This document shows, in pieces, positions 4,217-62,870 of a stretch of DNA of 64,000 nucleotides. The position numbers and the translations under genes were made by a program. The stretch covers positions 295,944-359,943 of the IMG/VR virus record IMGVR_UViG_3300009784_000001; one strand, written 5' to 3'. The stretch's first letter is position 1. Each line of letters begins with the position of its first letter. This stretch comes from a virus (taxonomy: Duplodnaviria > Heunggongvirae > Uroviricota > Caudoviricetes). The notes under the pieces were generated by a model. The model searched no databases and was not told where the DNA came from. It was given only the letters and a program-made list of their open reading frames with translations.

Positions 4217-4338
4217 TCCCCTGTAGCTCAGTTGGTTAGAGTACTTAAAATGAAGTTTTCTGGGTAGGAAATGTTCAGCAATATCAATCAAAATCGCTGT
4301 TAACGAAGGGGTCGGCAGTTCGAGTCTGTCCAGGGGTT
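4217..4338 (+). ncRNA. tRNA-Asn(GTT)-like RNA interrupted by a 48-nt insert (4246-4293)
   Basis: CCCCTG/CAGGGG acceptor stem, D arm, GGCAG-TTCGAGT-CTGTC T arm; removing the insert restores CTTCG-CTGTTAA-CGAAG. Confidence 0.75.
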
Positions 4339-4385: not shown

Positions 4386-4442
4386 AGAAAACATACAGCA
4401 TTTTTTATCAATTCAACCATAGGAAAGAAAAAGTGTTTTCTG
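4386..4442 (+). ncRNA. CAGCA-motif small RNA
   Basis: AGAAAACA-TACAGCA...TGTTTTCT-G; ends nearly identical to 10262..10315. Confidence 0.7.
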
Positions 4443-4829: not shown

Positions 4830-4958
4830 AGGAAAGGTACAGCAAATTGAATTAAAATTCTATTTACAATTTTACTATGAGGAAGAGAGCTTTCATCTAA
4901 AATAGGTGGAAAACAACTCTCAAAGAAATGAGTACTTCTCTAAAAACTCTCTTTCCTG
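4830..4958 (+). ncRNA. CAGCA-motif small RNA (long variant)
   Basis: AGGAAAG-GTACAGCAA...CTTTCCT-G with internal hairpin TTTCATCTA/TAGGTGGAAA. Confidence 0.6.
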
Positions 4959-5553: not shown

Positions 5554-5639
5554 GGCTATGTGGCGTAATTGGGAGCCGCAGGGGACTTAAAATCCCCTCT
5601 CCTGTAAAGGAGGTACAGGTTCAAGTCCTGTCATAGCTA
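5554..5639 (+). tRNA. tRNA-Leu(TAA)
   Basis: GGGGA-CTTAAAA-TCCCC; long variable arm. Confidence 0.9.
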
Positions 5640-5640
5640 C

Positions 5641-5761
5641 GATGAGAATTAGCTCAGTTGGTAGAGCAAAGGTATTATAAAAAGTTTCTTGAATAAGAAA
5701 TGTTCAGCAATATTTAAAAATGGGAACTTTATGTCAGCAGTTCGAGCCTGCTATTCTCATC
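5641..5761 (+). ncRNA. tRNA-like RNA whose anticodon loop is replaced by a ~55-nt CAGCA-motif insert
   Basis: GATGAGAAT/ATTCTCATC acceptor stem, canonical D arm, AGCAG-TTCGAGC-CTGCT T arm; insert shares GAAATGTTCAGCAATAT with 4217..4338. Confidence 0.75.
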
Positions 5762-5766
5762 CACAT

Positions 5767-7739: not shown

Positions 7740-8081
7740 TTTTTAACATAAAAAATTTGGTCATTAAAAATAAAATTTGTATCTTTGCATTATAAATTAT
7801 GTTTTATTGATAGATTCAGGTACTGAATATTGGCACTGTAAAATATAGTTTAGAGTAATAGGCAGTAAGTCATATATCTATGAGTAGAGGGTAACGTTTG
7901 AAATTAGTATATACTCCTTTGAAAAAGTGCAATGACCTATTATTTTTTATTAAATATTGATAATTTTTTAAATAATAGTATATTTATATTAAAAAACTTA
8001 TAAATGGGTATTGAACCATAAATAAAAAGTAAAAACAAAAAAAGCAATGGGAACAGATGCTTAAAAAAAGAAAAAAAAGAA

Positions 8082-10261: not shown

Positions 10262-10315
10262 AGAAAACATACAGCATTTTTTCAATTTTCAATGGGAGAA
10301 AAAAAGTGTTTTCTG
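10262..10315 (+). ncRNA. CAGCA-motif small RNA
   Basis: AGAAAACA-TACAGCA...TTTTC-AATGGGA-GAAAA...TGTTTTCT-G. Confidence 0.7.
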
Positions 10316-10324
10316 AAAAAAATA

Positions 10325-10406
10325 AGGAAAGATACAGCAATGTTAAATGGTTAAAAGAAAATTCTGTAAAAATTTTTTGAAAAGGTTCAAATCCTATTCT
10401 TTCCTG
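10325..10406 (+). ncRNA. CAGCA-motif RNA enclosing a degenerate tRNA-Tyr-like body
   Basis: AGGAAAGA-TACAGCAA..AATGGTT..AAATT-CTGTAAA-AATTT..AGG-TTCAAAT-CCT..TCTTTCCT-G. Confidence 0.7.
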
Positions 10407-12176: not shown

Positions 12177-12247
12177 GCTGTGTTAGTATAAGAGTATTAC
12201 ATTGGCTTTGTAACCCAAAAATGGGGATGCGATTTCCTCACACAGCT
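12177..12247 (+). tRNA. tRNA-Thr(TGT)
   Basis: GCTGTGT/ACACAGC; loop TTTGTAA. Confidence 0.8.
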
Positions 12248-12256
12248 CTAAATTAA

Positions 12257-12328
12257 GGGCTTATCATATAATAGCTATTATGCCACCCCTGCAAGGTGGT
12301 TATTGGAGTGCAATTCTCCATAGGTCCA
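12257..12328 (+). tRNA. tRNA-Ala(TGC)
   Basis: CCACC-CCTGCAA-GGTGG; G3:U70. Confidence 0.85.
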
Positions 12329-15931: not shown

Positions 15932-16786
15932 ATGAAGAATTTAGATGAAATAAAGTTTTTATTTGAAAGAAAAGAAGAAGAGACTTTTCAAGAATATAGT
16001 GATAGAAAGGAAAAAGAACGAAGTGTATCAAGTAGTTGTAATCATAAGGGGGGGGGGATTCTTAATGAATCTGTTTCAAAAAAAAGTACTTCTGAAAGAC
16101 CAAATTTTATTTCTGAAATAAAAGGTTCAACAACTAATACATGGTCTTTACATAGACTTGATGAGATGACTGTACAAAGATTATTAGGAAAACATTCTAA
16201 TAATGGTTATATAATTATATCAGCAAGTAGAGGAGTGGAAAATGAATGGAATGAACAACAGAAACAAGAACAAAGAAGATTGAATAATGAAAATTATCAA
16301 AAATTATTAGCTTCAATAAAAAATAGTGGCTTTTCTTTTATTCCTGTATATGGTGGATTTGTTGAAAATTTAGGAGAAGAAGATGAAAGACAGGTTTATG
16401 AAAAATCATTTATTGTTTTGAATTTTAATAGAAAAGGAAATGAAATGGATTTTAATGAACTTTATCAAAAAGGTTTAGAATGGACTGAAGAATTTGATCA
16501 AGATTCATTTTTATCAAAGGCTCCTGATTCAACACCAGAATATGTTGATAAAGGAGGAAATGTAACAATGAAGTTTGGTGGGGATATAAAAGTAAATGAT
16601 TTAACTCAACAATATTTCACAGATTTCGTTAAGTCAAAACAATTAGGTCAAGAAACAAATACAAAGGGTGATTCAATGAGTAGAGAACACAGGATTACTT
16701 TTGAAGGAGTATTTATAAATCCTGAACCTGCTACTTTGAGTGAAAGAGTTGTAAGGGATTATTTAAATGAATTATTTTTGAAATAA
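15932..16786 (+). CDS. hypothetical phage protein
   Basis: IISASR...GGFVE...EKSF...FDQDS; TATTTAT motif upstream. Confidence 0.7.
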   Translation: MKNLDEIKFLFERKEEETFQEYSDRKEKERSVSSSCNHKGGGILNESVSKKSTSERPNFISEIKGSTTNTWSLHRLDEMTVQRLLGKHSNNGYIIISASRGVENEWNEQQKQEQRRLNNENYQKLLASIKNSGFSFIPVYGGFVENLGEEDERQVYEKSFIVLNFNRKGNEMDFNELYQKGLEWTEEFDQDSFLSKAPDSTPEYVDKGGNVTMKFGGDIKVNDLTQQYFTDFVKSKQLGQETNTKGDSMSREHRITFEGVFINPEPATLSERVVRDYLNELFLK

Positions 16787-16807
16787 TGTGATATTTATAT
16801 AAATAAA

Positions 16808-16900
16808 ATGAAAAAAAATACAAACATATTATTAGTTGGGCAACAAGGTTGGCAACAATTTGGACAAGGCTGTGGCAATGTTCCTGATAATGGTATGTAA
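16808..16900 (+). CDS. leader peptide 3 (30 aa, MKKNTNILLVGQQGWQQFGQGCGNVPDNGM)
   Basis: 11 of codons 11-23 are G/Q/W; the downstream tRNAs are Gln, Gly, Trp. Confidence 0.85.
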   Translation: MKKNTNILLVGQQGWQQFGQGCGNVPDNGM

Positions 16901-16934
16901 GTATATAAGGATAACCTTCGCAAATGGTGGCTCT

Positions 16935-17167: not shown

Positions 17168-17239
17168 GCGTCATTCGTATAGTGCTTATTATGCGACTCT
17201 TCCAAAGTCAGGACATCGGTTGGATTCCGATATGGCGCA
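17168..17239 (+). tRNA. tRNA-Gly(TCC)
   Basis: GACT-CTTCCAA-AGTC; GCG 5' end. Confidence 0.85.
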
Positions 17240-21158: not shown

Positions 21159-22244
21159 ATGGACATTTCTACTATACAATTAAACAAATGGATGAGTTAT
21201 TTGGATAACAACAAATCATTAACTGAATTATCTATTCCAGGTACTCATGATAGTTCTACATATAATACAACTAATTCTTTATCAAAATGTCAAACTTATT
21301 CCATAGTAGATCAATTAAGTGTAGGAGTTAGATTTCTTGATTTAAGGGTTAGATATAGTAGTGGTAGTTTTGGAATGTATCATGGAGTTGATAATTTAGG
21401 TGGTCTTACTTTTCAAAGTGTAATGACAGATGTAAAAACATTTTTGCAAAATAATCCAAGTGAAGTAGTTTTATATAGATTTATGAGGGAAGATAGTCAA
21501 CAATTACTTCCTGATAATACAAATAATGATGATTTCTTTATTGCTCAATTACAAACTGAATTATCAAATGTTGGATTAACATGGCATGATACTTCTACTG
21601 TGGCTGATTTAAAACTTGGAACTAATAGAGGAAGGGCTATAATTATTGAATATAATTCAAAAAATACAAATGCAGGTTTTAATATGGCTGCTTATGCTGT
21701 TAGAACAAGCCCATATAATTCTGGCTTTAGTAACTCTAGTTTTTTAACATCACAAATATCAGACAAATATCAAGATTTAATAACGAATGCTATTCCTGCA
21801 TTTGCAAAAAATAAATTTAGTAGGCTTGAATTAAATGCAGATGGTGGAACTCTTGTTTTAGGAGTACAAGTTCCTAATCCGCAACAATTTGTTCAAGCAT
21901 TTGCTCCAGTATATTATCAAAATTTAAGACAATATTGCAGAAAAGGTCCAAATTATTTATGGTTTATAGATTTTGAAGAAATATTTGCAGGAACAGGAAT
22001 TTTTTATCAAGAAATAATATTTAAAAACTTTGCTATGACAATCCCAACAAATTTAAAATTAATACTATCAGGGAATATACCAACAACCACTGAACTTGAA
22101 TTAGGACAAATGGCTATTGGTAAAATTGGTGGAAATCAGTATCTTTTCATGAATGATGATAATACTGTAACCTCAATTAATATAAATTCTCTTGCTACAA
22201 CTGCTCAATTAAGCAGTTTACAAGGAGTTGCTCCATTAATATAA
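21159..22244 (+). CDS. phosphatidylinositol-specific phospholipase C X-domain protein
   Basis: WM, LSIPGTHDS, CQ..SI..QL..GVRFLDLR, YHG. Confidence 0.8.
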   Translation: MDISTIQLNKWMSYLDNNKSLTELSIPGTHDSSTYNTTNSLSKCQTYSIVDQLSVGVRFLDLRVRYSSGSFGMYHGVDNLGGLTFQSVMTDVKTFLQNNPSEVVLYRFMREDSQQLLPDNTNNDDFFIAQLQTELSNVGLTWHDTSTVADLKLGTNRGRAIIIEYNSKNTNAGFNMAAYAVRTSPYNSGFSNSSFLTSQISDKYQDLITNAIPAFAKNKFSRLELNADGGTLVLGVQVPNPQQFVQAFAPVYYQNLRQYCRKGPNYLWFIDFEEIFAGTGIFYQEIIFKNFAMTIPTNLKLILSGNIPTTTELELGQMAIGKIGGNQYLFMNDDNTVTSININSLATTAQLSSLQGVAPLI

Positions 22245-30046: not shown

Positions 30047-30286
30047 AAAAAGCAGAAATAAAAGATTTGGCAGGAAAACGATATGAATTTATTAAAGAAT
30101 ATAATAAAATTCCTGTTGGTTCTATATTGGGAGTTAATCCAATTGGAGAGATGATAACGTTCAATGGTGGATTGTGTGATAGTGCTTCTCAAACAGCATT
30201 TACTTCTTTAGTATTAAATGAAGTAAATAATAAATTCAATTATTTAAGAGAAGTAAATCAAATTCATAATCAAATTTGAAAAAGAA

Positions 30287-30880
30287 ATGAAGAAAAAAAC
30301 TCTTCTTTTAGATATAGATGAAGTAATAAATGATCTTAAAGAAATTTGGATTGATTTATATAATAAGAAATATAATGATAATCTTAATTATATGAATATT
30401 ACTGAGTGGGAAGTTGATAAATTTGTTAAACCAGAAGCAAAAGAAGATATATATGAGTTATTAAAAACTCCTGGTTTATTTAGTAAAATGTTAACACCAC
30501 CTGAAGATTCTATTAAAGTTACTGAATTATTAGTTCAATATTATGAAATATATCCTTTAAGTTATTGTGCATATCCTCAAAATATCTATGAAAAAATAGA
30601 ATATTTGGAAAAATATTTTCCCCACATTGATATTAGAAATTTCATAAGTTGTAAAAATAAATCTTTGATTAAAGGTGATTATATGATAGATGATTATGTT
30701 GAAAATCTTAGATATTTCGATGGACAAAGAATATTGTTTAATAGGGAACATAACTTATTTGTAAATAATTTACCTGATAGAATATATAGAGTTAATAATT
30801 GGGAAGATATTTTAATGTATTTTGGAACACAAAATAGTGATGTTTTAAATTATATAGGAAATGAATATAGCAGAAGATAA
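30287..30880 (+). CDS. 5'(3')-deoxyribonucleotidase (NT5C-like HAD)
   Basis: LDIDEV; K..IKGDYMIDD; RVNNW. Confidence 0.8.
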   Translation: MKKKTLLLDIDEVINDLKEIWIDLYNKKYNDNLNYMNITEWEVDKFVKPEAKEDIYELLKTPGLFSKMLTPPEDSIKVTELLVQYYEIYPLSYCAYPQNIYEKIEYLEKYFPHIDIRNFISCKNKSLIKGDYMIDDYVENLRYFDGQRILFNREHNLFVNNLPDRIYRVNNWEDILMYFGTQNSDVLNYIGNEYSRR

Positions 30881-35081: not shown

Positions 35082-36308
35082 ATGATAATTAAAAGTTTAT
35101 TGGACAATGATCTATATTTTTATAATATGCTCCAGTTCATTGTTGATCAGAAATTTGACAAGTTGATTGTTGGTAAAGAATTATTTTTAAGAGGGGAATA
35201 CAAATTTCCATTGGGTTTTGGAAAGGCATTAAAGGAAGAAATTGATTCCTGGAAAGATTTAAGATTTTCAGATGAAGAATTAGATTTTCTTTATTCAAGA
35301 ACAAAAAATTGGATAAATTTTGATTTTATTTATGGATATTTAAAATCATATAAATTATCCCCTGATTTAATCAAATTACATATTAATAGATGCTCAGATT
35401 CAACAAAAGAAGATTATGAATCTATATCTTTGAGTTATGAAGGTGAATGGGCTAAGATAATTATGTTTGAATGTTTTTTATTAGCTGTAATGAATGAAAT
35501 CTATGGAAAATTGACATTTGATGTTAAACATGTGCTTAATTTTAGTGAAATATCAGCAAGAAATTCAAATAAATTTCAAGAAATGAAAGACAAGAAAATT
35601 CAAGTTTTTGAGTTTGGGACAAGACGTAGATATTCTTTTGAAAATCAAAATTTAGCTATAATGCAAATGATTGATTATGGTGTGATAAAAGGCACATCAA
35701 ATCTTTATTTTGCTAAAAAATATGATTTGCCTGTGTTTGGTACAATGGCACATGAATTATTTTCTGTATTTGCTGCTGTATATGGTGTAGAGAGTGCTAA
35801 TTATCAAGTTATATCTAAATGGGCTGAAACATTTAATGGTTCTCTTGGGGTAGCTTTGACAGATACCTTTACTACACAATCATTTCTTCAACATTCTTTT
35901 ACAAGATTTTATGCAAAATTATATGATGGAATGAGAGAAGATTCTGCTCCAAATACAGATATTTATGTTGATAATGCTATTATTAAATATAGTGAATTAG
36001 GAATTAATCCAGTAAGTAAAAAGGTAGTTCATTCTAATGGAATTGATTCTGTTAATTTGATGTATCATTTATTAAATTACAGAAAAGATGAAATCGGAAG
36101 GGATTTAGGAGTAGGAACATTTTTAACTAATGATGTATCAAGAGAAGGTTCTGGTAAACATTTAAATAGTTGGGTTATTAAAACTGTTTTTGCTATTGTA
36201 AATGGTCAAAAGAGATATACAGCAAAATTAGGAGATAATCCAGCAAAAGCAACTTCTATTTCGGATAAATTAATTGAATGTTATAAATTTTTATTAGATA
36301 TAAAATGA
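35082..36308 (+). CDS. pncB: nicotinate phosphoribosyltransferase
   Basis: SLLDNDLY, EFGTRRR, GTSN, GTMAHE, LTDTF, REDS. Confidence 0.85.
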   Translation: MIIKSLLDNDLYFYNMLQFIVDQKFDKLIVGKELFLRGEYKFPLGFGKALKEEIDSWKDLRFSDEELDFLYSRTKNWINFDFIYGYLKSYKLSPDLIKLHINRCSDSTKEDYESISLSYEGEWAKIIMFECFLLAVMNEIYGKLTFDVKHVLNFSEISARNSNKFQEMKDKKIQVFEFGTRRRYSFENQNLAIMQMIDYGVIKGTSNLYFAKKYDLPVFGTMAHELFSVFAAVYGVESANYQVISKWAETFNGSLGVALTDTFTTQSFLQHSFTRFYAKLYDGMREDSAPNTDIYVDNAIIKYSELGINPVSKKVVHSNGIDSVNLMYHLLNYRKDEIGRDLGVGTFLTNDVSREGSGKHLNSWVIKTVFAIVNGQKRYTAKLGDNPAKATSISDKLIECYKFLLDIK

Positions 36309-36598
36309 AAAAAGTATTATTATTTTTAAGTTTATTTATTTTTATTTCATGTGGTGATTGTGGATGTGGAGAGCCAGATTCATATGGAACATATGAATTA
36401 ACATATAGCATAGTTTATTCTGATATGGTTTCAACAAAAACAATTACTATTTCAGATACTTGTTATTTAACCTCTTATAGAGGAAGTAATAAATTAAGTG
36501 TTAGAGATAAAAAGGCTAGTTATGGAGAAACAGTAATTATAGAAACAACTGCTCCTATTAGAATTGAAAAATTAATTAAAATAGCAGAAAATGAATAA
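36305..36598 (+). CDS. lipoprotein, paralog of 42050..42319
   Basis: signal ending FISC; TTAPI motif. Confidence 0.65.
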   Translation: MKKVLLFLSLFIFISCGDCGCGEPDSYGTYELTYSIVYSDMVSTKTITISDTCYLTSYRGSNKLSVRDKKASYGETVIIETTAPIRIEKLIKIAENE

Positions 36599-36843
36599 AA
36601 GTGCATTATTAAAAATAGTAATTTTATTATTAGAAGATTATAAAGAAGAATTGGCTAATAATGGTTGTAATGATACACCAGATGAAATTAAAAATATCAT
36701 TATTGAAGAAATTGGATTAAATGAATTTCAAAAATGGGCCGAAGAATGGAATAATGGAGAATGTGAAGATGCTATAGATTATGATTGGATTGTAACAGGA
36801 GTTATTGCAAACCAGTTAAAAAAATTAAAATAGAAAATAAAAA

Positions 36844-36886
36844 GGGGGATTTATTACTATTGCAACCTCTTAAAAAATGCTAAAAT
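36844..36886 (+). promoter_or_regulatory. SAM-II-like riboswitch aptamer
   Basis: GGGG-GATTT...ATTGC-AA-CCTC..AAAAAAT-GCTAAA, ending ~46 nt before metK. Confidence 0.65.
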
Positions 36887-36932
36887 GTTGCAAAAATAAA
36901 TCTCATTTAATAATAATTAAAAAAATAAAAAA

Positions 36933-38102
36933 ATGAGTAAAAAAGTTATTACAAGTGAGTTTGTTTCATGGGGACATCCTGACAAAATTGCTGATCAAAT
37001 CAGCGATGCAATTTTAGAAGAATTATTGTATGAAGATTCTAAAACCAGAGCAGGAATTGAAGTATTAGTAAAAGATAATATTGTTGTTCTTGGTGGAGAA
37101 ATCAATTCAAAAGGAAAAGTGGACTATGATATTGTTGTTAGAAGTGTATTTGAAAAATTACCATTTCCTGAAAATCATAATCTTCAACCAGAGAATATTA
37201 AAATTATAAATTTAATTGGAAAACAATCCTTTGAAATTCATCAAGGAGTTGATAAATCTAATGATATTATAGGAGCAGGAGATCAAGGATTTATGGTTGG
37301 TTTTGCTTCAGATGAAACAGAGGAATATTTACCTTTAGGTGTTTATCTTGCTAAACATATTTGTCAATATATTAGTAAACAAACTCATCTCGGTTTTGGT
37401 CCTGATACTAAAACACAAGTTATTGTTGATTATTTTAATAATGAAATGCTATTATTTAATGATATACGCCCACATATTATTGTTGAATCGATATTAGTAT
37501 CAACAATGCAACAAGGAGATTTAACATATGATAGAGAATTGATAAAAAATATTATTTTGAATAATGATATGAAGATTGATTCAGAAATTTATAAAAAATA
37601 TATTAAAAATAATGAAACACTTGTAATAACTGTTAATCCTTGTGGTGAATGGAGAATTGGCGGTCCAATATCTGATTGTGGAGTAACAGGAAGAAAAATT
37701 GTAGTAGATCAATTTGGAGGTTATTCTAATGTAGGTGGAGGGGGGTTAAGTGGAAAGGACCTTTCAAAAGTAGATAGATCTGCTGCTTATATGGCAAGAT
37801 ATTTAGCTAAAAATATTGTTGCAAGTGGTATAGCAAACACTTGTAAGGTAGAATTATCTTATATGATTGGAATACCTAATCCATCTTCAATTAATATAGA
37901 ATTGAATAAAAATCAACATTTAGTACCAGAAATTAAGGCTTTTATTGAAGAAAATGTTAATCTGACTCCAAAAGCAATTATTGATAAGTTTAGTGATTGC
38001 TTTGAACCATACAGAATGGCTGTGGAAGGGCATTATGGAAATATGATGGATTGTTGGGAAGAAATTGATTTTGCAAAAGATTTGAAAGAATATTTATATT
38101 AA
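36933..38102 (+). CDS. metK: S-adenosylmethionine synthetase
   Basis: TSE.V..GHPDKIADQISD, GAGDQG, GGP..D.G.TGRK, SGKD.SKVDRS. Confidence 0.95.
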   Translation: MSKKVITSEFVSWGHPDKIADQISDAILEELLYEDSKTRAGIEVLVKDNIVVLGGEINSKGKVDYDIVVRSVFEKLPFPENHNLQPENIKIINLIGKQSFEIHQGVDKSNDIIGAGDQGFMVGFASDETEEYLPLGVYLAKHICQYISKQTHLGFGPDTKTQVIVDYFNNEMLLFNDIRPHIIVESILVSTMQQGDLTYDRELIKNIILNNDMKIDSEIYKKYIKNNETLVITVNPCGEWRIGGPISDCGVTGRKIVVDQFGGYSNVGGGGLSGKDLSKVDRSAAYMARYLAKNIVASGIANTCKVELSYMIGIPNPSSINIELNKNQHLVPEIKAFIEENVNLTPKAIIDKFSDCFEPYRMAVEGHYGNMMDCWEEIDFAKDLKEYLY

Positions 38103-38115
38103 TACAAATTATTTT

Positions 38116-38916
38116 ATGGAAAATTATAGAAATAAATTTAAATTTTTATGTGAATATGATGTTTCTAAAGGTGGTCTTCTTATGGAATCAGAAGGTAGGT
38201 ATAAATTAATTGGATATATAAAAGATTCTGATGTAAAATTTGCACTTGGTGATTATTATGTTTTAATTGATACAACTGTGCCTGAATCAGATAATATAAA
38301 TCAATATGCTGAAAGAGCAATTATGTATAATTCAGAAGAAGATGGATCAGGAATTACTCTTCCTCATTATAGAGAATTAAAAAATTTTATTACACTTTTA
38401 CCAGAATACAAAAATTCATATTATGAACATGCTATTTTTGGAGAACCAGAAGATATAAAGAAACAAAAATCTGAAGAACTTTTTGCAACTATTCAACAAG
38501 AAAATGGAAATGCTATATTAACACATAATTCTTCTAAAAAAATTACTGATGGATATGTGAGAATAGGAATGACTTCTAATGATTACTCTGCTTCTGATTT
38601 TAGAGGAGATAATACTCCAAGAGCTTATTTCTGGGGAAGTAGTGGTGGTATGGATGTATCAAATGCTCATGCAACTTATATTTACACTTGTGAAGTTCCA
38701 ATAGATAAAATTTATGATATTCAAAATAATATAAACCACTGGGATTCAAAAGAAGCTATAGCGAATGGTTATATTGCTACAGCATATTATATGAGTGGAG
38801 AAAAGCAAAGAGGAACAGTAGTTGCTTCTTATGTGTCTTTACCAATAAAAACCATAAAAATTAGTATGGATAGTAGTAAAATTTATAATGCCAATTGGCA
38901 GTTGATTAATCAATAA
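38116..38916 (+). CDS. hypothetical protein
   Basis: 266 aa; TATTTAT motif upstream. Confidence 0.65.
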   Translation: MENYRNKFKFLCEYDVSKGGLLMESEGRYKLIGYIKDSDVKFALGDYYVLIDTTVPESDNINQYAERAIMYNSEEDGSGITLPHYRELKNFITLLPEYKNSYYEHAIFGEPEDIKKQKSEELFATIQQENGNAILTHNSSKKITDGYVRIGMTSNDYSASDFRGDNTPRAYFWGSSGGMDVSNAHATYIYTCEVPIDKIYDIQNNINHWDSKEAIANGYIATAYYMSGEKQRGTVVASYVSLPIKTIKISMDSSKIYNANWQLINQ

Positions 38917-38932
38917 TAAAAGGATAAATGTT

Positions 38933-39406
38933 ATGTTAACTTTTTTTGAAGAAAAATACAAAGAATATAAAGGTTGCTGTAATTGGATTCTATTTTCTTT
39001 TTGTGGAAAACATGAATATGAATATGAAGAAGATTTATGGGTTGCTGGTGATATTGGAACTATTGCATTGATAGGCGATTTATATGTAGATTTACAAGAT
39101 ATGATTACTGATTTAAATAATAATGCTCCAAAAGAAGAATTTCTAAAATGGTATGATTATTCTCTTGAAGTATATCAATTAGGATTAAATAATGTAAATT
39201 ATAAAAGTTGGTTAAATGGTTGCCCAAGATATACAGATGAAGAACTCAAAATGATAAGAGAAAAGAAAGAAGAAGCTATGATAAGGGAATTGGAATGGAT
39301 TACAGATATTCATACTAAAAAAGATAATATCATATCAGGAATTTTTGATTCTGAAGGTATTACTTTAACTAAAAAAGATGGAACTAATGTAAGAATAAAT
39401 TATTAA
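38933..39406 (+). CDS. hypothetical protein
   Basis: 157 aa ORF. Confidence 0.65.
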   Translation: MLTFFEEKYKEYKGCCNWILFSFCGKHEYEYEEDLWVAGDIGTIALIGDLYVDLQDMITDLNNNAPKEEFLKWYDYSLEVYQLGLNNVNYKSWLNGCPRYTDEELKMIREKKEEAMIRELEWITDIHTKKDNIISGIFDSEGITLTKKDGTNVRINY

Positions 39407-39862
39407 ATTATGGATTTGTCAAATATATTAAGGGAGGAAGAAATTAGAAATAATTCTTCTTCTTTTATAAGAGAATTAATTGATATCAATAGAGCAAGTA
39501 CTATTGTTGATGCCATGTTAGATACTCCTAATAGAAAAATGGAATATTCTGATATAATTTTTGAATTTCAAAAAGATAAAGCAGATTTTTTTAGAATTAA
39601 AAAAAGTAGATTTTGTGAAATAGGATTGTATGTAAGTCAAAAATATTATCTTAATAAATTAGAAGAATGGCATAAAAAGGAAAATGATTATAAAGAATTG
39701 CTTATTGAAAAAAATGAACAAATTGATAGACTTCTTATTCAAATAAAAACATATGAAAAAGAAGGAATGAAAAAGAAAAAATGGCAGTTTTGGAGATGAC
39801 AATTTGTCATATAATTGTTTTGGTATGAAATTTGTAAAATGTTATGTAAAATTTAAATAAAT

Positions 39863-41809
39863 ATGAATAAAGTAATTGGAATAGACCTTGGAACGACTAA
39901 TTCGTGCGTTTCAGTTATGGAAGGGAATAATACAGTTGTTATTCCAAATAATGAAGGAAGAAATACAACTCCTTCAATTGTTGCGTTTATAAATGATAGT
40001 GAAAGAAAAGTTGGAGAACCTGCGAAACGTCAAGCAGTAACTAATCCTACAAAAACTATTTCATCCATTAAGCGTTTTATGGGTGAAAAATATAGTAATC
40101 TTGGAAAGGAAATTGAAAGAGTTTCTTATAAAGTTGATAAAGGTACAAATGATCTACCTAAAGTAGATATTGATGGAAAACTTTATTCTCCTCAAGAAAT
40201 TTCAGCAATAATTCTTCAAAAAATGAAAAAGACTGCTGAAGATTATCTTGGTCAAGATGTAAAAGAAGCTGTTATTACAGTTCCTGCTTATTTTTCAGAT
40301 GCTTCAAGACAAGCAACAAAAGAAGCTGGTGAGATAGCTGGTTTAAAAGTTTTAAGAATTATAAATGAGCCAACAGCAGCAGCATTAGCTTATGGTTTAG
40401 ATAAATCAGATAAAGACAAGAGAATTGCTGTATTTGATTTAGGTGGAGGTACATTTGACATTTCTATTCTTGAATTAGGTGGTGGTGTATTTGAAGTAAA
40501 ATCAACAAATGGTGATACACATTTAGGTGGTGATGATTTTGATCATGTTCTTGTTGATTGGTTAGCAGATGAATTTAAAAAAGATGAAGGAATTGATATA
40601 AGAAAAGATCCAATGGCAGCACAACGATTGAAAGAGGCTGCTGAGAAAGCTAAAATTGAATTATCAAGTTCTTCTTCAACAGAAATTAATTTACCATATA
40701 TTATTCCTGTAGATGGAATACCTAAACATTTAGTAAAAACATTAACTCGTGCTAAATTTGAACAATTATGCGATAATCTAATTAAAGCAACTATTAAACC
40801 ATGCGAAAAAGCATTAGAAGATGCTGGATTGAAGCCATCTGATATTGATGAAGTTATTTTGGTTGGAGGTTCTACTCGTATTCCTACTGTTCAAGATACA
40901 GTTGAAAAGATATTTGGAAAAGTTCCTTCTAAAAATGTAAATCCTGATGAAGTTGTTGCAGTTGGGGCAGCTATTCAAGGTGCAGTTCTTACAGGGGAAG
41001 TAAAAGATGTTTTATTACTAGATGTAACACCTCTTTCCCTTTCTATTGAAACAATGGGAGGAATAGCGACTAAATTAGTTGAGTCCAATACAACTATTCC
41101 TTGTAAAAAATCAGAAATATTTACTACAGCAGTTGATAATCAACCAGCGGTTACAGTTAGAATTTGTCAAGGAGAACGTTCATTGTTTAATGATAATAAA
41201 CAAATTGGAGTATTTAATTTGGATGGAATTTTACCTGCAAGACGTGGTACACCACAAATTGAGGTTGTATTTGATATCGATTCAAATGGTATATTGAATG
41301 TTTCTGCAACAGATAAAGGAACAGGAAAAGAACAACATATTACTATTGAAGCATCAAGTGGTTTATCTCAAGATGAAATTGATAGAATGAAAAAAGAGGC
41401 TGAACAGTTTAAGAAACAAGATGAAGAAGAAAAAGTTAAAATTGAAAAGTTAAATAAAGCCGATTCTTTAATATTTCAAACTGAAAAACAATTTGAAGAA
41501 TTTGGAAATAAATTAACAGAAGATGATAAAAAAGAATTTCAACCAATATTGGATGAATTGAAAGAAGCTGTTAAAAATAAAAATGTTGATAAAGTTGATT
41601 CTCTTGAAAAACAATTGAATGATATATGGGTAAAGTTATCTGCTAAATTATATTCACAAAGTAATGGTAATCAAGGAAATAGTAGTAATCCATTTGGAGA
41701 AGGATTTAATTTTGATGATTTGATGAAGAATTCACAAGCTGGAGCAGCTTCCAACAATAATTCACAATCATCTGATGTACAAGATGTTCCTTTCGAGGAA
41801 GTAAAATGA
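39863..41809 (+). CDS. dnaK: chaperone DnaK
   Basis: [34 protein letters not shown]; C-terminal DVPFEEVK. Confidence 0.98.
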
Positions 41810-42049
41810 TAATTTTAAGCTAAAAAATTTGGTAATGTAGAGATAAATTTATATTTTTGCATTACCATTTTTAATAATTTTAGTTATGAATAATTTTGAA
41901 AAAATTATATTAGTTTGTTTTCTTATTGAACTCATTACTTATGGGATAGCTGGCTACATAGCTGGTTGGGTAAGAAATGTATGGTTTTCATTTAAATTAT
42001 ACATACCATTTTATAATATTTATTATACTTTAACATCAAAAGATACAAT

Positions 42050-42319
42050 ATGAAAAAGTTAATTTTTATTTTTATATTACTTTTAATTATAATTTCCTGT
42101 TCTGAAGAAAAAGGAACATATATAATGATTTATAAAGTTTATTATTCTGCTGAACATGTAGTAACTGATACATTAAAAAGTAATTCTGCATTTATTTATG
42201 ATTCTGATAAAGGAACAAATTATATATTTGAAGATAATCATTTTTTGTTAAAAACAACAGCACCAATAGAAATTATAGAGAATACTTTCATACCAGATAA
42301 TTCATCTGAAAATAAATAA
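42050..42319 (+). CDS. lipoprotein, paralog of 36305..36598
   Basis: signal ending IISC; KGTNY...TTAPI. Confidence 0.65.
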   Translation: MKKLIFIFILLLIIISCSEEKGTYIMIYKVYYSAEHVVTDTLKSNSAFIYDSDKGTNYIFEDNHFLLKTTAPIEIIENTFIPDNSSENK

Positions 42320-42323
42320 AGTT

Positions 42324-42746
42324 ATGAAAACGCTTTCTGTGAAACAACCCTGGAGTACTTTATTATTTTATGGGAAGGATATTGAAAATAGAAGTTGGAG
42401 AACGAATTATAGAGGAGAATTACTAATACATGTTTCTTCTAAACCTTTAATAACTTTAACAGATGCATGGAATAATGGCTATTTAACAAGAAAAATAGTT
42501 GAATTTATTAAAAATAATAATATTGAGGAGTTTATACTAAATAAATATGGCTTTGAACAATATTGTAAAGGTTTACCTACTTCTTGTATATTAGGAAAAG
42601 TTACATTAATAGATTGTGTTAGAGATAGCAGATCTATTTGGGCAGAAGAAGATTGTTGGCATTGGATAATAGAAAATCCTATATTGTTTGATAAGCCAAT
42701 TGAAAATATAAAAGGAAAATTAAATTTATGGGAATATTATGGCTAA
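42324..42746 (+). CDS. ASCH domain protein
   Basis: LSVKQPW..GKDIENRSW.TNYRG.LLIH; KGKLNLW. Confidence 0.85.
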   Translation: MKTLSVKQPWSTLLFYGKDIENRSWRTNYRGELLIHVSSKPLITLTDAWNNGYLTRKIVEFIKNNNIEEFILNKYGFEQYCKGLPTSCILGKVTLIDCVRDSRSIWAEEDCWHWIIENPILFDKPIENIKGKLNLWEYYG

Positions 42747-43845
42747 AAAAAGTTTATATCAAGTTTTAAATGTTACAGAAGAAGAAAAGAAATTACCTCA
42801 AGAACAGTTTAATGAAATAATTAAAAAAAGATACAGAGAAAACGCATTGGAAAATCATCCTGATAGGCAACAAGGGAAATCTGAGGCAGAAAAGAAAATA
42901 TGTGAAGAAAAATTTAAAGAAGCAGCAGAGGCTTATGAAGTCTTATCAGATGAAAATAAGAGAAGAAATTATGATATGACTGGAAGCAATTCTGGTTTTA
43001 ATTTTTCTCAATTTCATGATGATGATTTAGCAACATTTTTGCATAATTTTATGGGCGGTAATCATTTTGGGTTTGGTGGTAATTTTGATATGAATACTTC
43101 AAGATCACCAAGAATGTATAAAGGAAAAGATGTTACATTTAAGGTTCAATTAAGTATTGATGATGTAATAAATGGTTGTGAAAAGAAATACAAATATAAA
43201 GTAAATAGACCTTGTTCTTATTGTAATGGTGGAGAAAAAACAACTTGCCCTCATTGTAATGGTGCTGGTATAATAATCAATACAAGTCAAAGAGGTGGTT
43301 TTATAATGCAGCAATCTTCTCCTTGTCCTTATTGTCAAGGAACAGGATTTGTGATTAGTAATAGTTGTTCTTATTGCCAAGGAACAGGTTTAAAGGAAAC
43401 AGAAGAATCTATAACTGTTAAATTCCCAAAAGGAGTAACAATAGGAGATTCATTAATAATTGCAAGTGGAGGTCATCATTTACCCCGAAGTATGAATAGT
43501 GTTCCTGGTGATTTAAATGTTGTAGTTGGAAATATTGACAGTGGAGAATGGCAAATACAACAATATGATTGTCTTTTGATGAAAGAAATATCCATTGTTG
43601 ATATAATTTTAGGTTCAGATATTGAAATCACTGGTATAAGAAAAGAGAAATTAAAAGTTTTTATTCCACGAAATACTAGTAATGAAGCGCATTTTAGGTT
43701 AGTTGGAAAAGGATTACCAATGAGAAATTCAAATAGAAATGGAGATGCTTATTTAATTGTTAAATATAAGTTTCCATCCCAAGAAATTGATAAAGATGAT
43801 AGGAAAACTCTTGAAAAATTAAAGAAAAGTCCTAATTTTAAATAA
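42739..43845 (+). CDS. dnaJ: chaperone DnaJ
   Basis: HPD J-domain, G/F region, CxxCxGxG repeats. Confidence 0.92.
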   Translation: MAKKSLYQVLNVTEEEKKLPQEQFNEIIKKRYRENALENHPDRQQGKSEAEKKICEEKFKEAAEAYEVLSDENKRRNYDMTGSNSGFNFSQFHDDDLATFLHNFMGGNHFGFGGNFDMNTSRSPRMYKGKDVTFKVQLSIDDVINGCEKKYKYKVNRPCSYCNGGEKTTCPHCNGAGIIINTSQRGGFIMQQSSPCPYCQGTGFVISNSCSYCQGTGLKETEESITVKFPKGVTIGDSLIIASGGHHLPRSMNSVPGDLNVVVGNIDSGEWQIQQYDCLLMKEISIVDIILGSDIEITGIRKEKLKVFIPRNTSNEAHFRLVGKGLPMRNSNRNGDAYLIVKYKFPSQEIDKDDRKTLEKLKKSPNFK

Positions 43846-61229: not shown

Positions 61230-61268
61230 AGAAATTAAACAGCAATAATAAATTAAAATAAATTTCTG
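61230..61268 (+). promoter_or_regulatory. CAGCA RNA motif abutting the DUF2828 start codon
   Basis: AGAAATT-AAACAGCAA...AATTTCT-G-ATG. Confidence 0.7.
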
Positions 61269-62870
61269 ATGACAAATCAATTTTTAAACAATGTACAATC
61301 AAAAGATTGTTACACAGACAATGGTGCTTTAAGCAATTCAAGTACAGGTAATATATTAGTTAATCAATTTGGAATTGCAGCTTCTCAAAGAGGAAGAAGT
61401 ATTGATGAAGTATTTAATGATCAAGCTATCCTATTTGGTTATGATCCAGAATTATCTTTAAAATTTGTTTTCTATTTGAGAATGATTACAAGAAATGTTA
61501 ATGTTAATGGTGAAGCTATTGGTAAAATTCAAAAGGGACAAGGTTCTAGAGATGAATCTTTTAAAAGACTATTATGGTATGCTGTAAATCAACCAAAAAT
61601 GTTTTATGAAAATTTATGGCTATTACCAGTTGTAGGGTCTTGGAAAGATATATGGAATATTTTATTTTTAGCTTATCAAAATAATATTAATTTAGATAAA
61701 AATTTTATTTTTGGAATTATTCAAGGTGGGATGAGTTCTGATAATCAAAAAGATTTAATCAAAAAATTCTTACCTCGCATTAGATCAAATAAAAAATGTA
61801 CAACTGAATGGGCAAAATATACTAATTCTTTAGCAAAAGAATTTATTCAAGCAGTTGGGTGGACTGAAAAAGATTATAGAAATTTTAAATCAACAGGAAC
61901 AGCTCATGAATTTCAAAGATTGATATGTTCTGGTAAATATGATTTATTAAAATTCAATTTAATTCCTGGAAAGGCTTTATTTAATTTAGCAAAAGGTAAA
62001 TTCTTATCTAATCATAATTTGGAAAAGAAATTTGAACAATGGATTTCTAAACAACCTGTTGCTAAATTTACAGGATATGTTCATGAATTGGGTCAAGAAG
62101 TTAATAATAGTGGCAGTAATTTACCTTTATATAAAAAATTAACATTTGATAAACAATTCACTGGTTTAGTTGAATTAGGAAAAAAATCAGCTAATGAAGG
62201 CATATTAGGAAAAAGGAATGTAATTTGTGCTATTGATAGAAGCGGCAGTATGACAGAAGGAATAGGAAATACAACTTGTATGAATATTGCTGAATCTTTA
62301 GGAATTTATTTTGCTTCCTTGATGGAAGGTGCTTTTCATAACTGGGTAATTAAGTTTTCATCAAGAAGCGAATGGGTACAATTACAAGGTGATAGTTTTG
62401 TTGATAGAAAAAAAAGTATGCAATGGGGAGATTGCCCTTCAAATACTGATTTTCAATCTGTTATTGATTCAATTGTTAGAGTAAAATTACAAAATCCTAA
62501 TATTGCTGAATCAGAGTTTCCAAATACATTAATTGTAGTTTCTGACATGCAATTTGATTATTGTGGGTATGGTTCAACTAGACAAGATGAAAAAACTAAT
62601 CAGCAATTAGCAGTTCAAAAATTATCTCAAGTATTTAGTAAAGAATTTGTAGATAATTTTGTATGGATTTGGTGGCAAGTGAATGGTCAAAAGAAAGATT
62701 TTCCTCAAACTATGAATGAAGGAGGAGGATATGTAATTTCTGGCTTTGATGGTGCTATTATTACTACTTTATTAGGAGGCGCAGTTAAACCAAAAGGTGA
62801 AAAACCTGATATGTTGGATATGGTTAAAGAGGCTCTTAATCAAGAGGTTTTAAATTTGATAAAATTATGA
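61269..62870 (+). CDS. DUF2828-like protein (TROVE/Ro60-like helical domain plus vWA)
   Basis: TDNGA...STG, GQG.R, GSWKD, KFLPR, DRSGSM, NTDFQ, SDMQFD, SGF. Confidence 0.8.
   Translation: MTNQFLNNVQSKDCYTDNGALSNSSTGNILVNQFGIAASQRGRSIDEVFNDQAILFGYDPELSLKFVFYLRMITRNVNVNGEAIGKIQKGQGSRDESFKRLLWYAVNQPKMFYENLWLLPVVGSWKDIWNILFLAYQNNINLDKNFIFGIIQGGMSSDNQKDLIKKFLPRIRSNKKCTTEWAKYTNSLAKEFIQAVGWTEKDYRNFKSTGTAHEFQRLICSGKYDLLKFNLIPGKALFNLAKGKFLSNHNLEKKFEQWISKQPVAKFTGYVHELGQEVNNSGSNLPLYKKLTFDKQFTGLVELGKKSANEGILGKRNVICAIDRSGSMTEGIGNTTCMNIAESLGIYFASLMEGAFHNWVIKFSSRSEWVQLQGDSFVDRKKSMQWGDCPSNTDFQSVIDSIVRVKLQNPNIAESEFPNTLIVVSDMQFDYCGYGSTRQDEKTNQQLAVQKLSQVFSKEFVDNFVWIWWQVNGQKKDFPQTMNEGGGYVISGFDGAIITTLLGGAVKPKGEKPDMLDMVKEALNQEVLNLIKL

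What the first reader, a model, noticed from the sequence alone, without database searches (positions are those of the whole stretch)
5641..5761. Second tRNA mimic with the motif replacing the anticodon loop
It has well-formed acceptor (9 bp), D and T arms, but about 55 nt between AAAG and CTTT, containing GTTTCTTG..GAAATGTTCAGCAATAT. That 17-nt string is identical to part of the insert at 4246-4293. Keeping the tRNA elbow and replacing the anticodon end with a protein-binding module is how bacterial YrlA RNAs are organised, although those are permuted differently.
Basis: partly seen in the sequence, partly recalled or inferred. Interest (0 to 1): 0.7.

Follow-up and report, generated by a model that had tools for sequence, protein, structure and literature searches.

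The report
tRNA-shaped phage RNA carrying protein handle
A giant gut phage encodes a complete tRNA look-alike with a small conserved hairpin "handle" in its anticodon arm; such tRNAs almost always occur in phages that also encode a Ro60-like ring protein, so it is probably that protein's partner RNA, a new form of Y RNA, and not a working tRNA.

Summary
Window 5643-5763 is a full tRNA body: 7-bp acceptor, D and T arms, an intact 5-bp anticodon stem and an encoded CCA. Its anticodon loop is swollen to 52 nt by a 7-bp hairpin followed by GUUCAGCAAUAU. The 17-mer occurs only twice in the 360-kb genome.

A DNA-pattern scan of IMG/VR found 65 unique tRNA genes with the same hairpin-(A)CAGCAA module, with 46 different, covarying stems. 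Of 50 records picked by that RNA pattern alone, 44 encode a DUF2828/DUF7788 protein (14/14 near-complete genomes), against 1 of 38 control records. The window's copy of this protein models as a Ro60 (TROVE+vWA) ring. The module also abuts that gene's start codon.

Klebsiella phage KP2025 holds a circular permutation of this RNA. There the acceptor is sealed, the ends lie at the handle, and it aligns full-length to Rfam YrlA at a sub-threshold score. Simple free-standing copies resemble Dictyostelium Class I RNAs.

The implied anticodon loops are abnormal: A32 in 50% against 3% of ordinary phage tRNAs.

Best reading (about 0.6): a Y-RNA-like partner RNA. Excision as a new kind of intron is not excluded (about 0.17). 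Expression and binding are untested. This scan noted the same module before on other DNA.

The parts
5643..5763 (+). w2: the tRNA-shaped RNA gene (this finding). It lies 3 nt after tRNA-Leu(UAA) and 3 nt before tRNA-Arg(UCU).
   Evidence: Rfam tRNA 34.9 bits with a 47-nt insertion; anatomy by coordinates; flanking tRNAs.
5669..5673 (+). Anticodon-stem 5' strand AAGGU (positions 27-31). It pairs with ACUUU at 5726-5730.
   Evidence: Direct reading; Rfam alignment; the same AAGGU/ACCUU stem occurs in homolog L208.
5674..5683 (+). A/U-rich 5' linker AUUAUAAAAA. It looks like an Ile-UAU loop but is not conserved in homologs.
   Evidence: L208 has AAAAAUUUUA and the KP2025 twin K3 has AGUAAAGAUA at the same place, each 10 nt.
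5684..5701 (+). Handle hairpin: GUUUCUU, tetraloop GAAU, AAGAAAU.
   Evidence: Compensatory change against the sister copy at 4255-4272; 46 distinct stems in 65 homologs; covariation 0/500 shuffles.
5702..5713 (+). Single-stranded box GUU-CAGCAA-UAU, 10 nt after the tetraloop (the modal geometry).
   Evidence: CAGCAA was fixed by the search pattern, so its invariance is not independent evidence. What the pattern did not fix: position -1 is A in 58/65 (U here), and the geometry is shared by 47/78.
5714..5725 (+). 3' linker UUAAA plus residual anticodon-loop heptamer AAUGGGA (Pro-UGG type, A33 instead of U33).
   Evidence: NNNGGGA next to the 3' stem strand recurs in L208, L303, KP2025 K3 and Vibrio phage R10Z.
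5726..5730 (+). Anticodon-stem 3' strand ACUUU (positions 39-43).
   Evidence: Pairs with 5669-5673.
4217..4338 (+). w1: the sister tRNA-shaped RNA. It is Asn-GUU type with the same module, inserted between positions 29 and 30 of the anticodon stem.
   Evidence: Rfam tRNA 36.2 bits; in-silico excision gives CUU|CG CUGUUAA CGAAG.
4386..4442 (+). Free-standing handle RNA: 8-9 bp end helix, UACAGCA, inner hairpin.
4830..4958 (+). Free-standing handle RNA with a long cargo.
10262..10315 (+). Free-standing handle RNA. Its cargo loop contains AAUGGGA, as in w2.
10325..10406 (+). Free-standing handle RNA whose cargo holds a GUA anticodon-like hairpin and a T-arm-like GGUUCAAAUCC.
61230..61268 (+). 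Minimal handle (AGAAAUU-AA-ACAGCAAU...AAUUUCU-G) that ends directly at the ATG of the DUF2828 gene.
   Evidence: The same arrangement occurs in 8 of 66 homologous loci.
61269..62870 (+). DUF2828/DUF7788 protein (533 aa) with a Ro60-like TROVE+vWA fold: the inferred protein partner.
   Evidence: Pfam and PHROG hits; model pLDDT 83.7 with top PDB matches to Ro60 structures.

Best explanation
w2 is a stable non-coding RNA built on a tRNA-Pro-derived body.

Proposed mechanism:
1. It is co-transcribed with tRNA-Leu(UAA) and tRNA-Arg(UCU).
2. The ordinary tRNA-processing enzymes release it (RNase P at U5643; 3' trimming to the encoded UCCA).
3. It keeps its 45-nt module. The module is a 7-bp hairpin with a GNNN-type tetraloop, followed 3 nt later by single-stranded CAGCAAUAU.
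4. This module is a handle bound by the phage's Ro60-like ring protein, the DUF2828/DUF7788 protein encoded at 61269-62870.
5. The tRNA body, with a residual Pro-like NNNGGGA loop, acts as the second, effector-facing domain. This is the role the tRNA-like domain plays in bacterial YrlA Y RNAs: it could tether the ring to a tRNA-binding host factor or gate the ring.
6. A minimal copy of the handle on the protein's own start codon would let the protein repress its own translation.

Shown here: the anatomy, the family, the covariation, the co-occurrence with the protein, the protein's fold and the permuted twin.

Inferred: expression, processing, retention of the module, binding, and the downstream role. 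The role may be counter-defence, since the Felixounavirus ortholog gp130 counters the Ppl defence system in the PhageMaP preprint.
For: 1. A complete tRNA core and arms surround the module. The gene sits 3 nt from a tRNA on each side, so it is very likely transcribed and processed.
2. The module is a conserved structured unit. There are 65 unique tRNA+module genes and 46 distinct stems. Seven of 8 pairs show double changes (0/500 shuffles as high). The geometry is fixed in 47/78.
3. Co-occurrence was tested from the RNA side. 44/50 pattern-selected virus records carry DUF7788 (14/14 of those at least 90% complete), against 1/38 control records (0/11); Fisher p = 3e-17.
4. The protein model's best PDB matches are Ro60 structures over the full length, including a phage Ro60.
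5. The handle also occurs free-standing in the tRNA arrays. It lies on the start codon of the protein's gene here and in 8/66 homologs. This is the usual signature of an RNA-binding protein that regulates itself.
6. KP2025 RNA K3 (L318:9709-9830), directly downstream of that phage's DUF2828 gene, is the same architecture circularly permuted. It has equal linker lengths and the same ..GGGAACUUU. Its acceptor is sealed by a loop, so it cannot be charged. It aligns full-length to YrlA at 40.1 bits.
7. The implied loops are not normal anticodon loops. A32 occurs in 26/52 against 15/514 ordinary tRNAs from the same loci (p = 3e-20). GCU and CAA anticodons sit in short-variable-arm bodies. Close orthologs differ UGU against UAU.
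8. Both module tRNAs of this genome duplicate anticodons already supplied by canonical genes, Asn-GUU and Pro-UGG.
9. No RtcB and no splicing endonuclease gene was found in the genome.
Against: - No expression, end-mapping or binding data exist for any member.
- In 52/65 members, deleting one contiguous segment restores a canonical 5-bp stem and 7-nt loop with U33 and R37 (4.7 expected by chance). This is what an intron would require.
- The mix of insert-type and permuted forms sharing one motif is also the pattern of bulge-helix-bulge (BHB) introns and permuted tRNA genes in the red alga Cyanidioschyzon (from my own knowledge).
- The protein gene is 55.5 kb from w2 in this genome.
- The phage encodes an RNA ligase (PF09414).
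- In the PhageMaP preprint, gp130 alone rescued T7 on a Ppl host, so the protein can act without phage-encoded RNAs.
- w1 and w2 have U, not the usual A, before CAGCAA.
Confidence: 0.6

Rival explanations
1. The module is a new, protein-dependent tRNA intron. The hairpin-CAGCAA element marks the insert for excision and ligation, with the DUF2828 protein as a splicing cofactor and a phage or host ligase sealing the exons. w2 then matures into a decoding tRNA, Pro-UGG via AU|UGGGA or Ile-UAU via AUUAUA|A. Permuted versions would mature through circular intermediates.
For: In-silico excision restores a canonical anticodon arm in 52/65 family members, mostly at one site, 28/29-29/30 (46 observed against 1.1 in shuffles). 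w2 itself has four formally canonical solutions. The tRNA body and CCA end are intact. The phage has an RNA ligase. 'Enigmatic' tRNA introns are published for Lak megaphages (PMC6784885). Co-occurrence with DUF2828 fits a cofactor as well as a partner.
Against: - Homologs do not conserve w2's 5' 'AUUAUAA' (L208, K3).
- The conserved heptamer AAUGGGA lacks U33.
- The twin K3 cannot yield U33 by any single excision.
- A32 occurs in half of the implied loops against 3% of real tRNAs.
- Ser-GCU and Leu-CAA anticodons sit in class I bodies that the cognate synthetases should not accept.
- Distances from the hairpin to the putative cut sites vary between members.
- Free-standing handles with only a hairpin cargo, and the handle on the DUF2828 start codon, cannot be introns.
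- No endonuclease or RtcB gene is present.
- Ro60-type rings have no known catalytic activity (established knowledge).
Confidence: 0.17
2. w2 is a decoy or bait for a host tRNA-directed factor, such as an anticodon nuclease, a modification enzyme like TrmD, or ProRS. It would work through its tRNA body and GGGA loop alone. The module would only make it unusable by the ribosome or more stable, with no specific binding to the DUF2828 protein.
For: The tRNA body is intact, the G35-G36-G37-A38 type loop residues are conserved in the w2 subfamily, and anticodon loops turn over fast among orthologs. Phage tRNAs are known to counter anticodon nucleases (established knowledge).
Against: It does not explain the invariant box, the covarying hairpin and the fixed geometry. 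It does not explain the near-perfect co-occurrence with the Ro60-like protein. It does not explain the handle on that gene's start codon.
Confidence: 0.1
3. w2 is a dead tRNA gene disrupted by a small mobile repeat. It would have no function of its own.
For: The two inserts in this genome share an identical 17-mer, which suggests recent copying. The discriminator U73 and the U1-A72 pair do not fit Pro or Ile identity (identity rules from established knowledge).
Against: All tertiary-core nucleotides and all four stems are intact. 65 unique homologs keep intact bodies with compensatory changes. The insertion site is restricted to the 5' side of the anticodon loop. A permuted version is maintained in a cultured phage.
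Confidence: 0.05

Closest known systems
YrlA-type bacterial and phage Y RNAs with Ro60/Rsr (Rfam RF02553; Chen et al. 2014, PMC4201824; phage phiLo Ro60 with Yrl1/2, PMC12135203)
   Same: A tRNA-like domain (acceptor, D and T arms) is joined to a protein-binding helix with a conserved single-stranded box on its 5' side. The RNAs are encoded in genomes with a ring-shaped TROVE+vWA-fold protein. The permuted cousins K3 and K4 align full-length to the YrlA model (40.1 and 34.3 bits), with CAGCAAAU lying where YrlA has GGCGAAUG.
   Different: - The protein is DUF2828/DUF7788, not Pfam TROVE, and has no sequence-level match to any solved Ro60.
- The box is (A)CAGCAA, not GNCGAAN0-1G.
- w2 is not permuted: its ends are at a real 7-bp acceptor with CCA, and the handle is a capped hairpin inside the anticodon arm.
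- An anticodon stem and a loop remnant are kept.
- All scores are below the gathering score of 69.
Class I RNAs of dictyostelid social amoebae (Rfam RF01414; Kjellin et al. 2021, PMC7919456)
   Same: A short covarying helix is immediately followed by ..UUACAGCAA and then a variable region. The free-standing phage copies also share the AAG/AG start and the CUG(U) end. KP2025 copies K1 and K2 hit RF01414 at 25.0 and 22.6 bits.
   Different: In w2 the helix is closed by a tetraloop instead of joining the RNA ends. The RNA is 121 nt, not 42-65. The box reads GUUCAGCAAUAU. The host is a phage of bacteria, there is no DUSE promoter, and the scores are below the gathering score of 41.5. The known Class I binding protein is an RRM protein (Rnp1A/CIBP), not a Ro60-like ring.
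'Enigmatic' tRNA introns of Lak megaphages (Devoto et al. 2019, PMC6784885)
   Same: They are short non-group-I inserts in the anticodon region of tRNA genes of AT-rich huge gut phages, they are highly conserved, and their fate is unknown.
   Different: Lak inserts are 79-114 nt and sit after position 37. They consist of a small ACAR..YUGU hairpin plus a nested tRNA-like unit. They have no CAGCAA box, and a link to DUF2828 was not examined.
BHB introns and circularly permuted tRNA genes of Archaea and Cyanidioschyzon merolae
   Same: One RNA signal appears both inside tRNA genes and at the junction of permuted tRNA genes.
   Different: There is no bulge-helix-bulge geometry at the boundaries and no splicing endonuclease gene. 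The hosts are bacterial. Many implied mature loops are non-canonical.

Membership tests
tRNA (RF00005) | Cloverleaf with 7-bp acceptor, D arm, T arm and conserved core nucleotides; score above the gathering threshold | tested here: met
   34.9 bits against a gathering score of 29. U8, A14, G18 G19, G15:C48, U54 U55 C56 and A58 are all present.
tRNA (RF00005) | 7-nt anticodon loop with U33 and a purine at 37, closed by the 5-bp stem | tested here: not met
   The loop is 52 nt. The conserved 3' heptamer AAUGGGA has A33. Canonical loops arise only after a hypothetical excision.
tRNA (RF00005) | Identity elements that match the anticodon (Pro: C1-G72, A73; Ile: A73) | tested here: not met
   w2 has U1-A72 and U73. 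The identity rules are from established knowledge of E. coli synthetases.
YrlA Y RNA (RF02553) | Covariance-model score at or above the gathering threshold (69 bits) | tested here: not met
   A partial hit of 20.7 bits at 5614-5667. The permuted cousins in KP2025 reach 40.1 and 34.3 bits.
YrlA Y RNA (RF02553) | Conserved GNCGAAN0-1G Ro60-binding motif in the 5' strand of the end stem | tested here: not met
   No such motif is present. The conserved box is GUUCAGCAAUAU. It is positionally equivalent in the cmscan alignment of K3.
YrlA Y RNA (RF02553) | tRNA-like domain with T arm, D arm and acceptor-like stem | tested here: met
YrlA Y RNA (RF02553) | 5' and 3' ends pair to form the protein-binding stem (permuted relative to tRNA) | tested here: not met
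   The ends of w2 are at the acceptor stem and the handle helix is capped by GAAU. The feature is met in the twin K3.
YrlA Y RNA (RF02553) | Encoded with, and bound by, a Ro60 ortholog | tested here: inconclusive
   The same genome encodes a Ro60-fold DUF2828 protein 55.5 kb away. Co-occurrence is 44/50 against 1/38. Binding is not testable here.
Dictyostelid Class I RNA (RF01414) | [quoted passage not shown] | tested here: not met
   w2 is 121 nt, its stem is a capped hairpin, and RF01414 gave no hit at an E-value up to 10. The free-standing copies in this window and in KP2025 fit the design.
Group I intron in a tRNA anticodon loop | Self-splicing fold of 200 nt or more (P1-P9) | tested here: not met
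   The insert is 45 nt and there is no Rfam intron hit.
BHB (archaeal/eukaryal) tRNA intron | Bulge-helix-bulge at both junctions and a splicing endonuclease available | tested here: not met
   I could draw no BHB for w1 by hand. A systematic BHB scan was not run, and w2 was not separately examined. PF01974 is absent from the genome. Bacterial hosts lack the enzyme (established knowledge).

The most novel reading that the evidence does not exclude
The hairpin-ACAGCAA module is the recognition signal of a third, protein-guided way of removing inserts from tRNAs. It would operate in phages of bacteria, with the Ro60-like DUF2828 ring holding the pre-tRNA while a nuclease and a ligase act. Insert-type genes such as w2 would be spliced. 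Permuted genes such as KP2025 K3 would mature through circular intermediates, as in Cyanidioschyzon. That would make these genes conditional tRNAs, switched on only when the phage protein is present.
Probability: 0.12. Interest if true: 0.9.

Novelty: new variant of a known kind. Interest (0 to 1): 0.62.

Why it matters
If the reading holds, Ro60/Y-RNA-type particles are far more common in phages than the canonical TROVE family suggests. DUF2828 homologs occur in 582 cultured phage records, including Felix O1-like, KVP40-like, Listeria P100-like and Campylobacter phages.

They would also come in a form not described before: an ordinary-looking, CCA-ended tRNA with the protein handle built into its anticodon arm.

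Several loose ends would be connected:
- Oversized 'pseudo' or 'intron-containing' tRNAs in large phage genomes.
- The Ro60-like counter-defence protein gp130 of phage Bas63, for which the PhageMaP preprint only guessed that 'some tRNA genes are possibly Y RNAs'.
- The function of Dictyostelium Class I RNAs, which carry the same UUACAGCAA box and are still unexplained.

Because members exist in E. coli, Klebsiella and Vibrio phages, binding, processing and function can be tested at the bench now. For annotation, such genes should not be counted as decoding tRNAs.

Tried and rejected
- An exact 16-mer scan of IMG/VR gave 116 hits, none in a tRNA context. The motif as spelled in this phage is not conserved.
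- A search for relatives through the neighbouring DUF3307 gene found nothing.
- blastn of the region against cultured phages matched only ordinary tRNAs.
- ARAGORN's intron mode calls w2 'tRNA-Asp(AUC), 29-nt intron' and w1 'tRNA-Phe(GAA), 42-nt intron'. I rejected both. The comparative parse gives Asn-GUU with the insert at 29/30 for w1, and a Pro-type remnant for w2.
- I first favoured tRNA-Ile(UAU) with a eukaryote-like 37/38 intron for w2. I rejected it because L208 and K3 have unrelated linkers at that place.
- The single-sequence minimum-free-energy fold of w2 prefers another pairing of the insert and is no better than shuffles (z = -1.25). The hairpin rests on covariation, not on energy.
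- A profile search of the protein against PDB sequences found nothing. Only the fold comparison shows Ro60.
- Sigma-70 promoter and terminator scans around the locus were at chance level.
- My regular-expression scan for free-standing handles over the whole genome gives similar numbers on both strands outside the tRNA region, so no claims are made there.
- Rfam did not report RF01414 for the EC6 free-standing copies at E up to 1.
- Pfam on the small neighbouring ORFs gave nothing useful.
- The protein atlas showed mainly viral clusters and did not settle whether Dictyostelium has a DUF2828 protein.

Full report
**Context.** The window is the last 64 kb of a 359,943-bp IMG/VR virus record with direct terminal repeats. 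GC content is about 26% and almost all genes are on one strand. The record has phage-type proteins and a large tRNA complement: 21 ARAGORN calls plus further Rfam calls in the window.

**Observation.** Rfam's tRNA model matches 5643-5759 at 34.9 bits with a 47-nt insertion in the anticodon loop. It matches a sister gene at 4217-4338 at 36.2 bits. By coordinates, w2 has:
- acceptor UGAGAAU/AUUCUCA, then U73 and an encoded CCA;
- a standard D arm and T arm with all core nucleotides;
- an intact 5-bp anticodon stem AAGGU/ACUUU.

Between the stem strands lie 52 nt, in this order: a 10-nt A/U linker; a 7-bp hairpin GUUUCUU-GAAU-AAGAAAU; GUU; CAGCAA; UAUUUAAA; and the heptamer AAUGGGA.

The gene lies 3 nt after tRNA-Leu(UAA) and 3 nt before tRNA-Arg(UCU). 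It should therefore be transcribed and cut out with its neighbours, although this is an inference. The 17-mer shared with the sister copy is exact and occurs only twice in the genome. The two hairpins differ by one compensatory and one one-sided change.

**A family, found independently of the protein.** The exact motif is not conserved elsewhere. I therefore used a pattern that asks only for a common D-arm start, CAGCAA and a T loop at distances too long for a normal tRNA. It found 12 of 50 DUF2828-encoding records, with none in the reversed control, and at least 115 stretches in IMG/VR.

Of these stretches, 78 (65 unique) have a good acceptor and T stem and a perfect 5-8 bp hairpin ending 0-4 nt before CAGCAA.
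- Hairpins of 6 bp or more occur in 63/75 tRNA-like matches, against 6.8 in shuffles.
- There are 46 distinct stems.
- In an ungapped alignment of 32 members with the modal geometry (tetraloop, then 10 nt to CAGCAA), 7 of 8 pairs change on both sides. There are 65 double-change cells against 19.9 +/- 4.5 in shuffles (0/500) and 11-20 in slid controls.
- The members were selected for having a hairpin, so the percentage of paired cells is inflated. The variety of pair types is not.
- The base before CAGCAA is A in 58/65. w1 and w2 have U.

**Where the module sits.** I deleted every possible contiguous segment and asked for a 5-bp stem, a 7-nt loop, U33 and a purine at 37. This gives a solution in 52/65 members against 4.7 in shuffles. 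In 46 of them the insert lies between positions 28/29 or 29/30 of the 5' strand of the anticodon stem, against 1.1 in shuffles. w1 is of this type (CUU|48 nt|CG CUGUUAA CGAAG, Asn-GUU).

w2 belongs to a minor subclass in which the full 5' strand comes first, then the module, then ..NNNGGGA and the 3' strand. Other members are:
- L208 (AAGGU..UUAGGGA ACCUU, C1-G72, A73, encoded CCA);
- L303 (..GUUGGGA AUAAA).

Vibrio phage R10Z carries the same kind of loop (..AUAGGGA), but with the insert in the stem at 28/29, the major-class position.

The 5' 'AUUAUAA' of w2 tempted me to read tRNA-Ile(UAU) with a 37/38 intron. It is only linker, because L208 and K3 have unrelated 10-nt linkers there. So w2 derives from a Pro(UGG)-type tRNA.

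**Link to the protein.** The 533-aa product of 61269-62870 hits DUF7788 and DUF2828 in Pfam and phrog_850 'RNA-binding protein'. It has 1187 homologs at E up to 1e-10. Its AlphaFold model (pLDDT 83.7, pTM 0.81) matches Ro60 structures best and over the full length. These include Xenopus, human, Deinococcus Rsr and Thermus phage phiLo Ro60 (E 3e-8 to 1e-5, TM 0.42-0.56). No sequence-level PDB match exists.

Starting from the RNA pattern alone, 44 of 50 records encode DUF7788, and all 14 records at least 90% complete do. Only 1 of 38 control records picked by an unrelated 16-mer does, and none of its 11 complete ones. Fisher p = 2.8e-17.

A minimal handle (helix, ACAGCAAU, helix, G) ends exactly at the ATG of the gene in this window. 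It ends 1-5 nt before the ATG in 8 of 66 homologous loci. In cultured phages the gene sits in or beside the tRNA cluster: EC6, Bas63, KP2025 and CPX.

**Free-standing and permuted forms.** The window has four free-standing copies in its tRNA arrays (4386, 4830, 10262, 10325). Each has an 8-9 bp end helix, UACAGCA, a cargo, and an end ..CUG. Felixounaviruses EC6 and Bas63 have the same between their tRNA genes, unannotated or overlapped by tiny ORF calls.

In Klebsiella phage KP2025, four such RNAs follow the DUF2828 gene. One of them, K3 (L318:9709-9830), reads in this order: helix strand, UUUUCAGCAA, an 8-nt linker, UAAGGGA, ACUUU, variable loop, T arm, an acceptor stem closed by a loop, D arm, GAAGU, a 10-nt linker, helix strand. 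This is w2 element for element, with equal linker lengths and the same GGGAACUUU. The chain is opened at the handle instead of at the acceptor.

K3 and its neighbour K4 align full-length to Rfam YrlA at 40.1 and 34.3 bits, below the gathering score of 69. The two simple copies hit Dictyostelium Class I RNA (RF01414) at 25.0 and 22.6 bits, below 41.5. Class I RNAs are defined by a short end stem and an adjacent 11-nt motif, and by AAG and CUGU termini (PMC7919456). The Rfam consensus shows ..CCUUACAGCAAU...

**Handle or intron?**

For an intron:
- the high rate of canonical arms after in-silico excision;
- the restricted insertion site;
- the intact bodies;
- the phage RNA ligase;
- the published but unexplained Lak megaphage tRNA introns, which are, however, a different sequence family of 79-114 nt with a nested tRNA-like unit;
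- one signal shared by insert-type and permuted genes, which recalls BHB motifs in Cyanidioschyzon (my knowledge).

Against an intron:
- Position 32 of the implied loops is A in 26/52, against 15/514 in ordinary tRNAs called in the same loci (p = 3e-20).
- Six unique members carry GCU and two carry CAA in bodies with 5-6 nt variable loops, where Ser and Leu tRNAs of bacteria have long arms.
- Near-identical orthologs differ UGU against UAU.
- One anticodon stem (ACGGC/GCCGU) carries five different anticodons.
- The conserved heptamer of w2 lacks U33, and K3 cannot acquire U33 by any single excision.
- K3's acceptor is sealed.
- Handles with only a hairpin cargo, and the handle on the start codon, cannot be introns.
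- Distances from the hairpin to the putative junctions vary.
- The genome has no RtcB and no splicing endonuclease.
- Both module tRNAs of this genome duplicate anticodons supplied by canonical genes.

I therefore put the partner-RNA reading at about 0.6 and excision at about 0.17.

**Literature.** Canonical Ro60 with YrlA-type RNAs is known in bacteria and some phages (PMC4201824; phiLo, PMC12135203). Jumbo-phage surveys mention a TROVE protein with a tRNA-like partner in a few phages (PMC7824862). For the DUF2828 family, the only statement I found is in the PhageMaP preprint (10.1101/2024.10.10.617714). [quoted passage not shown] I confirmed three points:
- gp130 is 466/472 identical to the EC6 homolog;
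- gp130 aligns to the window's protein (E 9e-24);
- ACAGCAA handle RNAs lie in the Bas63 tRNA cluster.

A full-text search for DUF2828 gave no relevant paper. I found no description of the hairpin-ACAGCAA handle, or of tRNAs carrying it.

**Earlier notes of this scan.** They describe the same module in other genomes and read it the same way. I treated them as leads. The family scan, the co-occurrence test with a control, the A32 statistic, the w2/K3 permutation pair and the fold comparison were all done here.

**Verdict.** This is a real, non-random feature. It is a member of a widespread, undescribed class of phage RNAs, most likely a tRNA-shaped, Y-RNA-like partner of a Ro60-like protein. 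It is a new variant of a known kind of system. Expression, binding and the fate of the module remain to be shown.

Noticed in passing
window 12177-12247, 12257-12328, 17168-17239: Rfam calls three tRNAs (44.8-51.4 bits) that ARAGORN misses. Their loops imply Thr-UGU, Ala-UGC and Gly-UCC. Their D arms are odd and AU-rich, without G18 G19, and the Ala one has C33 instead of U33.
   Followed up: partly
G000:C1:52286-52411, minus strand (outside the window): A tRNA-like gene with a good acceptor and T arm and about 48 nt of extra sequence after a CAAUAAU loop. It has no CAGCA box. ARAGORN's intron mode calls it Thr(UGU).
   Followed up: no
L333 (Bas63, MZ501086) 16778-16905: A 127-nt handle RNA with a permuted tRNA-like cargo lies on the plus strand. 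The record annotates the small minus-strand ORF bas63_0137 there, which is probably a mis-annotation.
   Followed up: partly
L318 (Klebsiella phage KP2025) 7908-8339: The GenBank 'tRNA-Arg' feature is 432 nt long and overlaps the DUF2828 CDS. ARAGORN places the tRNA at 7908-7982, so the feature end looks wrong.
   Followed up: no
L192 against L197 (two ~412-kb phages), Asn-type module tRNA: Pair 29:41 of the anticodon stem is A-U in one phage, using the base 5' of the insert. In the other it is U-A, using the last base of the insert. The change is compensatory across the insertion boundary, so the junction can slide.
   Followed up: partly
window 30183-30255: A possible further free-standing handle (UGCUUCUC-AA-ACAGCAUUU..GAGAAGUA) upstream of the ORF at 30287. 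It is indistinguishable from the background of my pattern scan.
   Followed up: no
window 35082-43845: The phage carries NAPRTase, a SAM synthetase, a full-length Hsp70 (840 bits) and a DnaJ. It also has a PI-PLC X-domain protein (21159-22244) and a protein kinase (56075-57760). This is an unusual auxiliary set for a phage.
   Followed up: no
PMC6784885, Supplementary Table S6 (Lak megaphages): All four listed Lak tRNA 'introns' share one plan: a short hairpin starting (U)ACA.., an A-rich spacer ..AUUAAA.., then a nested tRNA-like unit with its own acceptor helix and T arm. The paper notes a nested tRNA only for Thr.
   Followed up: partly
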